Positions 17,850 to 42,106 of a DNA stretch of 64,000 nt are shown one piece after another. The stretch is from the human T2T-CHM13v2.0 reference genome, Homo sapiens, in assembly GCF_009914755.1 (NCBI RefSeq), contig NC_060947.1; one strand, written 5' to 3'. The notes under the pieces were generated by a model. The model was given only the letters and a program-made list of their open reading frames with translations, was not told the origin of the DNA and searched no databases. The position numbers and the translations under genes were made by a program. The number at the start of each line of letters is the position of its first letter. Position 1 is the stretch's first letter.

Positions 17850-18955
17850 AGCTGTATTAAGTTATAATTGATAAATAAAACTTGTATATATTTAAGCTAT
17901 ACAACATGATAATTTGATATATGTACACATTGTGAAATGATTAACACAATCAGATTAATCAACACAACCATCACCTCACATAGTTACCAGTTTTTTAAAA
18001 AAATTAGTTTCAGTGGTACATGTGCAAGTTTGTTAAACAGATATATTATGTAATGCTGGGGTTTGGACTTCTGTTGAACCCGTCCCCCAAATAGTGAACA
18101 TAGTACTTAATAGTTAGTTTTACAACCCTTGTCCCTTCCCTCCCTCCCCACTTTTGGAGACTCCAGTGTCTATTGTTTCCATCTTTATGTCTGTGTACCA
18201 CTTTTTAAATTTTTATTTTTTAGAGAGGGTCTTGCTATGTTGCCCAGGCTGTTCACAGACTCTGAACTTAAGTAACCCCCACAACCTCAGCCTCCTAAGT
18301 AGCCAGGACTACAGGTGTATGCCTCTGTGCACAGCTGTTACCACTTTTTGCGTGTAGTGTGAGCATTTAGGATCTACTCTCTTATTAGATTTCAATGATA
18401 CAATACAGTATTATTAATTATAGTTACCATGCTGTATATTATTAATAGATTTCCAGGACTTATTCACCTTATAACAGAAATACTGTGCCCTTTGCTAACA
18501 TCTCCCAATTTCCTCTACCCCCCAGTACCTGGCAACCACCATTCTACTCTTAGCTTCCATGAGTTCAACTTCTTTAGATTCCACATATAAGAGGATATCA
18601 TATATATTTGCTTTTTTGTCTCTGACTTACTTCACTTAACATAATGTCCTCCAGGTTGATTCATGTTATTACAATTGGCAGAATTTCCTTCTTTTTTTGG
18701 TGGAATAATATTCCAATGTGTGTGTGCACATGTGTGTGTGTGTGTGTGTGTGTGTGTGTGTGTGTATTACCTCCATTGTCTTTATTCATTCAACTGTCAA
18801 TGGACATTTAGGTTGTTTCTACATCTTGGCTGTTGAGAATAATGCTGCAATAAATGTGGGAATGCAGATATCTTTATGACATACTGATTCTATTTCATTC
18901 GGATATATACTCAGAGTGTAACTGCCGGATCTTATGGTAGTTTTATGTTTTTTTT
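17850..18955 (-). mobile_element. 3' part of an old L1MA, with a nested L1PA 3' fragment (~18000-18200) and an Alu monomer (~18205-18335)
   Basis: Antisense L1MA 3'UTR motifs (CCTGGCAACCACCATTCTACTC, TTTAGATTCCACATATAAG). Confidence 0.75.
18731..18765. repeat. (TG)n microsatellite
   Basis: About 17 TG units. Confidence 0.95.
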
Positions 18956-19030
18956 AATGGTAATTCTATTTTTAATTTTCTGAGGGATCGCTGTGCTATT
19001 TTCCATAGCAGCTGCACGATTTTGCATTCC

Positions 19031-39770: not shown

Positions 39771-40135
39771 AGAATTATGAGTTCTTGTCCTTTGTAGGGA
39801 CATGGATGAAGCTGGAAACCATCATTTTCAGCAAACTATTGCAAGGACAGAAAACCAAACACCACATCTTCTCACTCATATGTGGGAATTGAACAATGAG
39901 AACATGTGGACACAGGAAGGGGAACATCACACACCGGGGACTGTTGTGGGGTGGGGGGATGGGGGAGGGATAGCATTAGGTGATATAACTAATGCTAAAT
40001 GATGAGTTAATGAGTGCAGCACACTAACATGGCACGTGTATACATATGTAAGAAACCTGCACGTTATGCACATGTATCCTAAAACTTAAAGTATAATAAT
40101 AATAATAATAATAAATAAAAATAAATAAATAAAAA
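39769..40135 (+). mobile_element. 3' half of the host truncated L1PA (second L1 3' end)
   Basis: ..TATGAGTTCTTGTCCTTTGTAGGGACATGG through a second 3'UTR and (AAT)n/A tail. Confidence 0.85.
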
Positions 40136-42106
40136 GTCAAAATAACAGGAGAAATAGCTTCTGCCAACCAAGAAGCAAGTGAGTTCCTGGACACTATTAA
40201 GAAAATCATTGAGGGGAGGCCGGGCACAGAGGCTCACTCCTGTAATCACAGCACTTTGGGAGGCCAAGGCAGGCAGGTCACCTGAAGTCAGGAGTTTGAG
40301 ACCAGCCTAAGCAACATGATGAAACTCCATCTGTATTAAAAATACAAAAAATTAGCCAGGCTTGGTGGTGTGTGCCTGTAATCCCAGTGACTTGAGAGGA
40401 TGAGGCAGGAGAATCGCTTGAGCCTGGGATTTGGAGGTTTCAGTGAGCCGAGATCACACCACTGCACTCCAGCCTGGATGACAGAATGATATTCTGTCTC
40501 AAGAAAAAAAAAAGAAAAGAAAAGAAAAAAAGAAAAAAGAAAAAGAAAATCATTGAGGGGAAAGGGTATTTGTCATAACAGGTTTTAATGCAGATTGAAG
40601 TGCCCTATTCTGGAAAAAATGTCACAAAGGACATTTATTAATAAGGAAGAGAAATGAACACCAGGACTTAAGGCTTGAAGGGATAGGCTATCTCTACTGT
40701 TTTGTGTAAAAGCAGTCAGCCTTATAATTGGAACTGCTGCTCACCCCTGTGCCTGGAAGGGAAAAAATAAATAACAGTTGGCAGTCTTTTGATTGTACAA
40801 CAGGAAGGCCTGGACAATGAGAGCTTTTACTGAATTGGTTACATTTACACCTTGTCCCTCAAGGCAGGAAGTACTTTGCTACTAAGGGACCACCTTTTAA
40901 AGTTCTTTTAATTTTGAACAATGTCCCTGGAGACCCAGAATCCTATAAGTACAACACCAAATGCATGGAAGTAGTCTACTTGTCCCCCAACACAATGTCT
41001 CTAATTCAGCCTCTAGATCAGGGGGTCATAAGGACCTTTAAGTCTCATTATATATGGTACTCTAAGAAAAAGATTATCAACACTATGGAAGAGAACCCTG
41101 ATGGAAAGAACATAATGGAAGTCTACAAGGATTACATCATTGAAGATGCCATCGTTGTTACAGAAAAAGCTATGAAAGCCATCAAGCCCCAAACAATAAA
41201 TTCCTGCTGGGGAAAACTGTCCAGATTTTGTGTACGACTTAACAGGATTTATGGTGGAGGCAATCAAGGACATCATGAAAGAGATTGTGAATATTGAAAA
41301 AACAAGGTAGGGGGTGAAGGATTTCAAGATACGGATCTTGGAGAAAGTCAAGAGCTAACAGACACCACACCAGAGGAATTGACAGAATGCAACTTGATGG
41401 AGACAAGTGCTTTCAATGCCAGACGATGAGAAAGAAGACAGAAGAAGCAATGCCAGAAAACCAATTGACATTAGATAATATGACAGTAGAGTTCCAGTTA
41501 TTTAAGGCTGCTTTTGATTTCTTTTAGGACACTGACCTTCTATGATACAGGCACTGAAATGAAAGCAAACAGTGGGAGAAGGATTGGTACAGTATAGAAA
41601 CATTTTTAGAAAAATGAAAAACAGAAAAGTCAGACAGAAATTACAATGTGTTTCTGTACAGTTACACCAAATGTGCCTACCTCTCCTGCCTCCCCTTCCA
41701 TCTGCTCCACCTTTTCCACCTCTACTACTCCCGATGCAGAAAGACCAACCCCTCTTTCTCCTCCTCCTTCTCAGTCTAGTCATTGTAAAGATGACAAGGA
41801 TGAAGACCTTTATGATGATCAATACTCAAACATTCACTTAATGAATAGTAAATTTATTCCTCTTCTTTATGATTTTCTTACATTTTCTTTTCTCTAGCTT
41901 ACTTTATTGTAAGATAGAGTATATAATAGGTATAACATATAAAATATGTGTTAATTAACTACTTACGCTATCAGTAAGGCTTCTGGTTAATAGTAGGCTA
42001 TTAGTAGTTAATTTTGGCAGGGAATCAAAAGTTATACACAGATTTTTCAACTTCACGGTGGAGGGGGGTCAGTGCTCCTAATCCTGTGTTATGCAAGGGT
42101 CAGCTA
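40131..42106 (+). mobile_element. Tigger1 DNA transposon, 3' half
   Basis: GTCAAAATAACAGGAGAA..; DDE transposase remnant 40914-41297 (VVYLSPNTMSLIQPLDQGVIRTFK); terminal GTGTTATGCAAGGGTCAGCT. Confidence 0.9.
40218..40542 (+). mobile_element. AluS-like inside Tigger1
   Basis: Alu dimer; 19-bp TSD AAGAAAATCATTGAGGGGA (40199-40217 / 40543-40561). Confidence 0.93.

What the first reader, a model, noticed from the sequence alone, without database searches (positions are those of the whole stretch)
18945..40139. Fossil inversion between two head-to-head full-length L1s, recorded by three split elements
Seen: (1) Tigger1 5' half is on minus (25708-26813) and its contiguous 3' half on plus (40131-42106); TSD AAAAAGTCA appears as TGACTTTTT at 25708-25716 and forward at 40131-40139. 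(2) A truncated host L1 is split at one L1 position: 5' part on minus next to the L1-A 5' end (revcomp 24986-25003 = AAAAAATGATGAGTTCAT), 3' part on plus after the L1-B tail (39769-39786 AAAGAATTATGAGTTCTT, 15/18 match). (3) The old L1MA ending ..GGAGGTTCTTAAAAAATAAACAT at 33627 (+) continues as the revcomp of 18944 leftward (AAAACTACCATAAGATCCGGC..). Neither L1-A nor L1-B has its own matching TSD pair; each 5' flank pairs with the other's 3' flank. Inference: recombination between the inverted L1s flipped at least 24986-33627 (8.6 kb), with breakpoints inside the L1s. It may be fixed, lineage-specific or still polymorphic.
Basis: partly seen in the sequence, partly recalled or inferred. Interest (0 to 1): 0.85.

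Follow-up and report, generated by a model that had tools for sequence, protein, structure and literature searches.

The report
Inversion between two inverted L1 elements
Two full-length L1 retrotransposons lying head to head on the human X chromosome have recombined and flipped the DNA between them, an ordinary and well-known kind of rearrangement that here is unusually cleanly recorded by three older repeats cut in two.

Summary
A left L1 (19031-24985, minus) and a right L1 (33628-39768, plus) are 94.4% identical. Each has a 5' flank that pairs with the other's 3' flank.

Three older repeats are split across the pair:
- a pogo/Tigger-type DNA transposon;
- a roughly 1-kb twin-primed L1;
- an old, diverged L1.

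Their halves lie on opposite strands. Measured against independent reference copies, the halves abut to within 1-2 bases or overlap by a target-site duplication. Flipping 24986-33627 in silico makes all three collinear. A third full-length L1 nearby keeps its own perfect 11-bp duplication and serves as an internal control.

The best explanation is ectopic homologous recombination between the inverted L1s, inverting 8.6 to 20.7 kb. This class is well documented in human-chimpanzee comparisons and as human polymorphisms (PMC2603318; 10.1101/2021.12.20.472354).

I could not map the crossover inside the L1s. The tests were inconclusive or confounded by gene-conversion tracts. Age, fixation and polymorphism could not be tested, because only this one assembly was available.

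Verdict: real, correctly interpreted, and a new member of a known kind. Interest is modest.

The parts
18774..18955 (-). 3' portion of the old diverged L1 (host of original element A). Its first 11 bases, 18945-18955, are the 3' copy of duplication A.
   Evidence: 18953-18774 aligns to 6703-6882 of another old L1 in the window, and to right-L1 positions of about 5630-5743. Junction read.
18957..19029 (-). 73-bp foreign piece between the left L1's poly-A tail and duplication A. Probably a 3' transduction or template switch.
   Evidence: 96% identical to G000:C1:119067635-119067707; the next best of 40 scored matches is 88%; that chr1 site is an uninterrupted old L1 with no young L1 beside it.
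19031..24985 (-). Left full-length L1 with poly-A tail. Lacks L1 positions of about 2891-3071 and a further 14 bases near 2810.
   Evidence: 93.5-94.4% to the right L1; indel list.
24986..25707 (-). 5' part of the twin-primed host L1 (host of original element B). 24986-25600 on minus covers L1 positions 5210-5824; 25601-25707 on plus covers positions 5102-5209. Duplication B's 5' copy is at 24986-25003.
25708..25716 (-). 5' copy of the 9-bp duplication made when the host L1 inserted into the DNA transposon.
   Evidence: The site matches the same place in reference copies L004 and L008.
25717..26812 (-). 5' half of the pogo/Tigger-type DNA transposon.
   Evidence: 74.1% to L004 and 71.0% to L008, ending at 2532 and 2549 of those copies; many genomic copies at 70-75% identity.
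26813..31759 (.). Middle of the inverted segment: assorted old repeats and a short L1 3' end at 29431-29905. No annotated gene.
   Evidence: best non-self genomic match 79%; the hub's gene table.
31760..33627 (+). 5' portion of the old diverged L1, interrupted by an Alu at about 33082-33394. Duplication A's 5' copy is at 33615-33627.
33628..39768 (+). Right full-length L1 (6141 bp) with poly-A tail.
39769..40130 (+). 3' part and tail of the host L1 (L1 positions 5806-6139). Duplication B's 3' copy is at 39769-39786.
40131..42106 (+). 3' half of the DNA transposon. It starts with the 3' copy of the 9-bp duplication (40131-40139), carries an Alu at about 40218-40542, and encodes a DDE_1 remnant at 40821-41294. 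The end beyond about 42052 was not verified.
   Evidence: starts at 2534 of L004 and 2552 of L008; DDE_1, E 5.1e-18.
44476..50652 (+). Third full-length L1 ('D', 44486-50630), used as a control. It keeps its own identical 11-bp duplication at 44476-44486 and 50642-50652, and shares an exchange tract with the left L1 at L1 positions 4143-4716.

Best explanation
Two full-length primate-specific L1s inserted independently, in opposite orientation, about 8.6 kb apart.
- Element A went into an old diverged L1, leaving duplication A.
- Element B went into a short twin-primed L1 that itself sat inside a pogo/Tigger-type DNA transposon, leaving duplication B.

Later, a homologous crossover between the two inverted L1s (non-allelic homologous recombination within one chromatid) flipped everything between the two crossover points. 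That is the 8.6-kb spacer plus the inner (5') part of each L1, so between 8.6 and 20.7 kb in total.

The products are two chimeric L1s. The left one now has A's tail and 3' flank but B's 5' end and 5' flank. The right one has the reverse.

Shown: the swapped flanks, the abutting halves of three repeats, and the restoration of collinearity by flipping.

Inferred: homologous crossover as the mechanism, from the geometry, from published precedent, and from independent signs that these L1s exchange sequence.

No annotated gene or functional element lies in the segment, so the event is most likely neutral.
For: (1) Coordinates. The host L1's two parts cover right-L1 positions 5210-5824 on minus and 5806-6139 on plus. 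They share 19 positions, at 93.5% and 91.3% identity to the right L1.

(2) Transposon. The halves abut at 2532|2534 in L004 and 2549|2552 in L008, which is 2 of 6 reference copies. Two more are consistent in order and strand, and 2 are uninformative. Identity is similar for both halves: 74.1% and 75.2% to L004.

(3) Old L1. The halves meet at 6703-6715 of a reference old L1, at 66-70% identity on both sides.

(4) Flipping 24986-33627 in silico puts each pair of halves on one strand in the right order, interrupted only by a young L1.

(5) Own-flank duplications are absent for both L1s. The neighbouring L1 'D' keeps a perfect 11-bp pair.

(6) The two L1s show sequence exchange:
- 34 of 37 shared-derived sites lie 5' of L1 position 4250 (Fisher p 3.6e-4).
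- Positions 447-916 carry 7 substitutions in 470 columns, against 5.6% overall. Only 3 of 5000 permutations gave a window as poor in differences.

(7) Precedent:
- 21 L1-mediated inversions between human and chimpanzee, called by the same duplication logic (PMC2603318; abstract, section 7, passages of sections 6 and 19).
- 22 polymorphic human inversions flanked by inverted L1 pairs, 21 of them above 90% identical (10.1101/2021.12.20.472354, passages).
- 8 L1 pairs in 1,019 long-read genomes (10.1101/2024.04.18.590093, passage).
- HsInv0341, a 20.8-kb inversion between 6.2-kb L1PA3 repeats (PMC3961182, table passage).
Against: Chimerism of the two L1s, which the model requires, was not demonstrated.
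- Majority states of 30 reference copies gave no reciprocal switch in private differences.
- Per-segment identity to 26 copies shifts by less than 1% and not reciprocally.
- The 5' UTR gave no clean polarity with 17 extra reference stretches.
- The one significant change point (1 of 5000 permutations) rests on L1 'D'. It is confounded by a D-to-left-L1 exchange tract.

The duplication copies are imperfect. B matches at 15 of 18 bases. A is 11-13 bases with a mismatch or indel, and it is separated from the tail by a 73-bp foreign piece.

Only one assembly was seen, with no outgroup, no other haplotype and no reads.
Confidence: 0.88

Rival explanations
1. Insertion-coupled inversion. Two L1 integrations happened at the same time at two breaks 8.6 kb apart, and the freed fragment was re-joined in reverse. 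Each L1's 5' end was then ligated to the other break. The L1s would not be chimeras.
For: It gives exactly the same flank and duplication pattern. The two L1s are each other's nearest relatives among 32 sequences in the 5' tree and carry similar numbers of private differences, 121 and 128. No chimerism was detected.
Against: It needs two simultaneous full-length insertions. I know of no documented case with two full-length L1s (recalled, not searched). Shared-derived sites are almost absent from the 3' 1.9 kb (3 of 37), which does not fit one shared template. Only the left L1 carries the 73-bp foreign tail piece.
Confidence: 0.03
2. Assembly artefact. The segment between the two L1s was placed in the wrong orientation in this assembly.
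For: Inverted repeats are a classic cause of orientation errors. No reads could be examined.
Against: The L1s differ at 330 of 5940 aligned columns, and their longest identical run is 118 bases. Long accurate reads would anchor easily, which is an inference. The junctions are clean to the base.
Confidence: 0.03
3. No inversion. The split halves are unrelated fragments of the same repeat families that lie on opposite strands by chance.
For: The region is repeat-dense, with three full-length L1s in 32 kb.
Against: Three independent pairs abut within 0-2 bases, or overlap by a duplication-sized stretch, in reference coordinates. Within each pair the divergence is similar. All three are resolved by one and the same flip.
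Confidence: 0.01
4. Non-homologous inversion, with both breakpoints falling exactly at the two L1 5' ends (24985|24986 and 33627|33628).
For: The flanks alone do not say where inside or at the edge of the L1s the exchange lay.
Against: It needs two breaks to coincide to the base with two L1 5' termini. Any crossover inside the L1s explains the same pattern without that coincidence.
Confidence: 0.01

Closest known systems
L1 recombination-mediated inversion (RRMI / L1-RMI), Lee et al. 2008, PMC2603318
   Same: Inverted L1 pair at the ends of the inverted segment. Each element's own duplications no longer match but pair across the two elements. Size is in the reported range (166 bp to 81 kb, with more than half of L1 cases above 10 kb). 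Young L1PA-grade elements are involved.
   Different: Those cases were defined by a human-chimpanzee difference, with the ancestral state confirmed by outgroups or PCR. Here the event is inferred from one genome only, through three split older repeats. The lineage and date are unknown, and the paper's locus list (supplement) could not be read.
Polymorphic human inversions flanked by inverted L1 pairs (10.1101/2021.12.20.472354; 10.1101/2024.04.18.590093), e.g. HsInv0341 between 6.2-kb L1PA3 repeats (PMC3961182)
   Same: Architecture: full-length inverted L1s above 90% identical (here 94.4%), a balanced inversion, and a total span of about 20 kb as in HsInv0341.
   Different: Polymorphism is not shown here. 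This pair is less similar than the published median of 97.2%. In the table passage I saw in PMC3961182, no chrX entry lies near this locus.
Twin-priming inversions inside single L1 insertions
   Same: These also place L1 sequence on both strands. Two examples lie in this window (25601-25709 with 24986-25600, and 8067-8953).
   Different: Twin priming inverts only the 5' part of one new insertion. It cannot flip 8.6 kb of older host DNA lying between two separate full-length L1s.

Membership tests
L1-L1 recombination-mediated inversion (NAHR between inverted L1s) | Two L1s in inverted orientation bound the inverted segment | tested here: met
   left L1 19038-24985 on minus, right L1 33628-39768 on plus, 93.5-94.4% identical over the full length.
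L1-L1 recombination-mediated inversion (NAHR between inverted L1s) | Each L1's own target-site duplications do not match, and they pair across the two elements | tested here: met
   Duplication B is at 24986-25003 and 39769-39786 (15 of 18 bases). Duplication A is at 33615-33627 and 18945-18955. The control L1 'D' keeps an identical 11-bp pair.
L1-L1 recombination-mediated inversion (NAHR between inverted L1s) | Flanking DNA is collinear once the segment is flipped, with no gain or loss at the flanks | tested here: met
   three split repeats abut or overlap by a duplication. The left L1 has an internal 181-bp deletion, which may or may not be linked to the event.
L1-L1 recombination-mediated inversion (NAHR between inverted L1s) | Both L1s are chimeras, with a mappable switch point | tested here: inconclusive
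   One search gave a change point at L1 positions 3361-3403 (1 of 5000 permutations), but it is confounded by the D tract. Searches show no reciprocal switch.
L1-L1 recombination-mediated inversion (NAHR between inverted L1s) | An ancestral, non-inverted arrangement with both L1s present exists in an outgroup or another haplotype | not testable with these tools
   Only this assembly is held. The middle segment has no near-identical paralogue in it (best non-self match 79%).
   DDE_1, E 5.1e-18, in 1 of 12 open stretches tested; dozens of copies at 70-75% identity. The subfamily name was not testable, since no repeat library was available.

The most novel reading that the evidence does not exclude
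The inversion is young, on the human or African-ape lineage, or still toggling in people. This L1 pair would then be an active recombination site inside the spacer between the inverted MAGED4B and MAGED4 duplicates. The 470-bp tract with only 1.5% difference (L1 positions 447-916) would mark the latest exchange. The D-like tract now in the left L1 would have been acquired by the right-hand element before the flip, which would place the crossover 3' of L1 position 4716 and make the inversion about 18 kb or more.
Probability: 0.2. Interest if true: 0.4.

Novelty: new member of a known kind. Interest (0 to 1): 0.25.

Why it matters
It is a clean, self-documenting example of an inversion produced by recombination between inverted L1s, readable from a single genome. 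Three nested older repeats record the ancestral order.

Such events are already known to shape human-chimpanzee differences and human polymorphism. This locus adds one case rather than a principle.

It has some practical value. If the orientation varies among people, it would matter for alignment and phasing in the repeat-rich Xp11.22 MAGED4/MAGED4B region. The exchange tracts among three neighbouring L1s also illustrate gene conversion between dispersed repeats.

Tried and rejected
(1) Mapping the crossover with the third L1 'D' as outgroup. The change point was significant. I then rejected it as evidence, because D and the left L1 share a private exchange tract at positions 4143-4716.

(2) Mapping it with 29 other genomic L1 copies plus D. 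These tests gave no reciprocal switch:
- majority-state classification;
- minority-state sharing;
- segment trees;
- per-segment identity;
- 17 extra 5' UTR stretches.

(3) The idea that one D-derived tract was split by the crossover between left (4143-4716) and right (4917-5042). The right-hand part rests on 3 of 9 D-distinct sites and a run of 9 sites that is not significant on its own. A further left-favouring run at 5044-5269 does not fit. I keep it only as a lead.

(4) Finding the source L1 of the 73-bp tail piece, to use as a painting reference. The best locus on chr1 has no young L1 beside it. One search was swamped by L1 3' ends.

(5) Locating the arm boundary of the MAGED4 inverted duplication. 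One search was swamped by an old L1 and told nothing.

Open stretches were used instead, and 11 of 12 gave nothing.

(7) Whether this locus is in print.
- The search for 'inversion, MAGED4, inverted repeats' returned 2 papers, 1 of them listed, which I did not open.
- The search for MAGED4B, inversion and palindrome listed nothing with this locus in a title or abstract start.
- The searches were also run.

I therefore cannot say that the locus is unpublished.

(8) Earlier findings of this scan were not open.
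Full report
**What is there**

The window is T2T-CHM13 chrX:51,398,001-51,462,000. I used blastn with the right-hand L1 as query against the window. It shows three full-length young L1s:
- a left copy on the minus strand (19038-24985, tail to 19044);
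- a right copy on the plus strand (33628-39768, 6141 bp);
- a third copy, 'D', on the plus strand (44486-50630).

Left and right face each other head to head across 8,642 bases. They are 94.4% identical over 5,940 aligned columns, and each is about 91% identical to D. The left copy lacks about 181 bases at L1 positions 2891-3071 and 14 bases near 2810.

**Checking the three split repeats**

(i) The short L1 beside the left copy's 5' end covers right-L1 positions 5210-5824 on the minus strand (24985-25600, 93.5%). The short L1 after the right copy's tail covers positions 5806-6139 on the plus strand (39769-40102, 91.3%).
- The two parts share 19 positions, which is the size of a target-site duplication.
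- The two copies of that duplication match at 15 of 18 bases.

(ii) The DNA transposon halves were compared with six other genomic copies fetched (L003-L008).
- In two copies they abut to the base: 2532|2534 in L004 and 2549|2552 in L008.
- In two copies they hit in the right order and strand, but with gaps.
- Two copies are internally deleted and uninformative.
- Identity is alike for both halves (74.1% and 75.2% to L004).
- The 9-bp duplication sits at the matching site of the reference copies.
- One open stretch of the 3' half carries a DDE_1 domain (E 5.1e-18). That was 1 of 12 stretches tested.
- This fits a pogo/Tigger element. The subfamily name could not be checked.

(iii) The old diverged L1 that ends at 33627 on plus and the one that runs leftward from 18955 on minus meet at positions 6703-6715 of another old L1 in the window. 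Identities are 66-70% on both sides. The overlap is an 11-13-base A-rich duplication (33615-33627 and 18945-18955).

**The flip test and a control**

I reverse-complemented 24986-33627 in a script and repeated the comparisons. Each pair of halves then lies on one strand in the right order, interrupted only by a young L1.

Neither young L1 has a matching duplication on its own flanks. D, 4.7 kb further on, keeps an identical 11-bp pair (44476-44486 and 50642-50652). Intact duplications are therefore still readable at this age in this region.

The middle segment has no near-identical paralogue elsewhere in the genome (best non-self match 79%). The region is unique sequence between the inverted MAGED4B and MAGED4 genes listed in the hub's table, and no gene is annotated inside it.

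**Mechanism**

The pattern is the one expected from a crossover between two inverted L1s. Each element keeps its own tail and 3' flank but acquires the other's 5' end and 5' flank. The inverted stretch runs from one crossover point to the other, so it spans 8.6 to 20.7 kb.

Published work uses the same duplication logic and documents the class:
- 49 retrotransposon-mediated inversions between human and chimpanzee, 21 of them by L1. More than half of the L1 cases exceed 10 kb, and 12 of the 49 carry an accompanying deletion (PMC2603318; abstract, section 7, passages of sections 6 and 19).
- 22 polymorphic human inversions with inverted L1 pairs. Six have full-length L1s on both sides, and 21 are above 90% identical (10.1101/2021.12.20.472354, passages).
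- 8 L1 pairs among 45 repeat-bordered inversions in 1,019 genomes (10.1101/2024.04.18.590093, passage).
- HsInv0341, 20.8 kb between 6.2-kb L1PA3 repeats (PMC3961182, table passage).

**Trying to find the crossover**

This did not succeed, and the negative results matter.

- With D as a third sequence, the 313 informative sites show a change point near L1 positions 3361-3403, with a support interval of 2435-4152. Only 1 of 5000 permutations reached the observed value.
- That signal is confounded. At sites where D differs from at least 80% of 29 other copies, the left L1 alone shares D's state at 15 of 29 sites in positions 4100-4720. Upstream the figure is 2 of 175, and downstream 2 of 38.
- In positions 4152-4686, D agrees with the left L1 at 30 sites and with the right at 7. 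This is a private exchange tract between D and the left L1.
- With 29 other genomic L1 copies plus D as references, private differences are balanced: 121 on the left and 128 on the right. Bins along the element show no reciprocal switch.
- These 29 copies were picked by similarity to the right L1. The matching set for the left L1 could not be fetched.
- Identity to 26 copies per segment differs by less than 1% and not reciprocally.
- Seventeen extra 5' UTR stretches gave no clean polarity.

The chimeric nature of the L1s is therefore inferred from the flanks, not seen in their bodies.

**Signs that these L1s exchange sequence**

- Left and right share 37 states that differ from at least 80% of reference copies. 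Of these, 34 lie 5' of position 4250 (3,409 usable columns) and 3 lie beyond it (1,832 columns). Fisher p is 3.6e-4. Ten of the 37 are seen in no other copy.
- Positions 447-916 hold only 7 substitutions in 470 columns, against 5.6% overall. Only 3 of 5000 permutations gave a window as poor in differences.

These are best read as gene-conversion tracts between the pair, which makes a crossover between them plausible.

Three places are candidates for the crossover:
- the 447-916 tract;
- the left copy's 181-base deletion;
- somewhere 3' of position 4716.

The third applies if the D-like tract was acquired by the right-hand element while it lay next to D in the same orientation. That reading would make the inversion about 18 kb or more. 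I give none of these more than even odds.

**Age**

Each L1 differs from the majority of reference copies at about 2.3-2.4% of usable columns, plus 0.7% that the two share. By recalled divergence-age tables for L1PA subfamilies, this suggests insertion in the ape lineage, roughly 12-20 million years ago. That figure is recalled and rough.

The inversion is younger than both insertions. Nothing here says how much younger, or whether it is fixed.

**Rivals**

- An insertion-coupled flip with two simultaneous L1 integrations gives the same flanks and is not excluded by sequence. It needs an undocumented coincidence, and it fits poorly with the lack of shared states in the 3' 1.9 kb.
- An assembly error is unlikely, given 330 differences and a longest identical run of 118 bases between the repeats. 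No reads were available to check.
- Chance juxtaposition is excluded for practical purposes by three independent base-level abutments that are all solved by one flip.

**Comparison and verdict**

This is a member of the known class of L1-L1 recombination-mediated inversions. Four features bear on membership:
- Geometry: met.
- Swapped duplications: met.
- Conservation of the flanks: met.
- Chimeric switch point and ancestral-state allele: could not be shown with the data at hand.

Whether this locus is already in an inversion catalogue is open.

The finding is real but ordinary in kind.

Noticed in passing
window 18957-19029 (minus): A 73-bp piece sits between the left L1's poly-A tail and its target-site duplication. 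It is 96% identical to one old-L1 copy on chr1 (G000:C1:119067635-119067707); the next best match is 88%. It ends about 15 bases after an ATTAAA motif. This looks like a 3' transduction or template switch, but no young L1 lies beside the chr1 site in this assembly.
   Followed up: partly
L1 positions 4143-4716: window about 20464-21037 (left L1) and about 48630-49205 (D): Private exchange (gene-conversion) tract between the left L1 and the third L1 'D', which are 25 kb apart and inverted. The left L1 alone shares 15 of 29 D-distinct states there, against 2 of 175 upstream. Identity is 96-97.5%, against about 92% elsewhere.
   Followed up: yes
L1 positions 447-916: window about 24073-24542 (left) and 34074-34543 (right): Tract of only 1.5% difference between the two inverted L1s, against 5.6% overall. 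Only 3 of 5000 permutations gave a window as poor in differences. Probably their most recent exchange.
   Followed up: yes
window 25601-25709 with 24986-25600: The host L1 has a twin-priming 5' inversion whose junction is exact in L1 coordinates (5209|5210).
   Followed up: yes
window 8067-8953: Another short L1 with a twin-priming signature. 8067-8577 on minus covers L1 positions 4821-5330, and 8578-8953 on plus covers 5766-6141, with positions 5331-5765 missing.
   Followed up: no
window 19038-50630: Three full-length young L1s lie within 32 kb, in the spacer between the inverted MAGED4B and MAGED4 genes. That larger inverted duplication could itself flip the whole spacer. I could not locate its arm boundary (one search was uninformative).
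   Followed up: partly
window 22110 (left L1, L1 positions about 2891-3071): A 181-base internal deletion in the left L1, plus 14 bases near position 2810. Published L1-mediated inversions are sometimes accompanied by deletions in the recombining elements, so this could mark the exchange. No test here supports or excludes that.
   Followed up: partly
window 31002-31758 (minus) next to 31760-33627 (plus): An old L1 3' fragment on the minus strand directly abuts the plus-strand old L1 that hosts duplication A. It could be another 5' inversion or a separate fragment.
   Followed up: no
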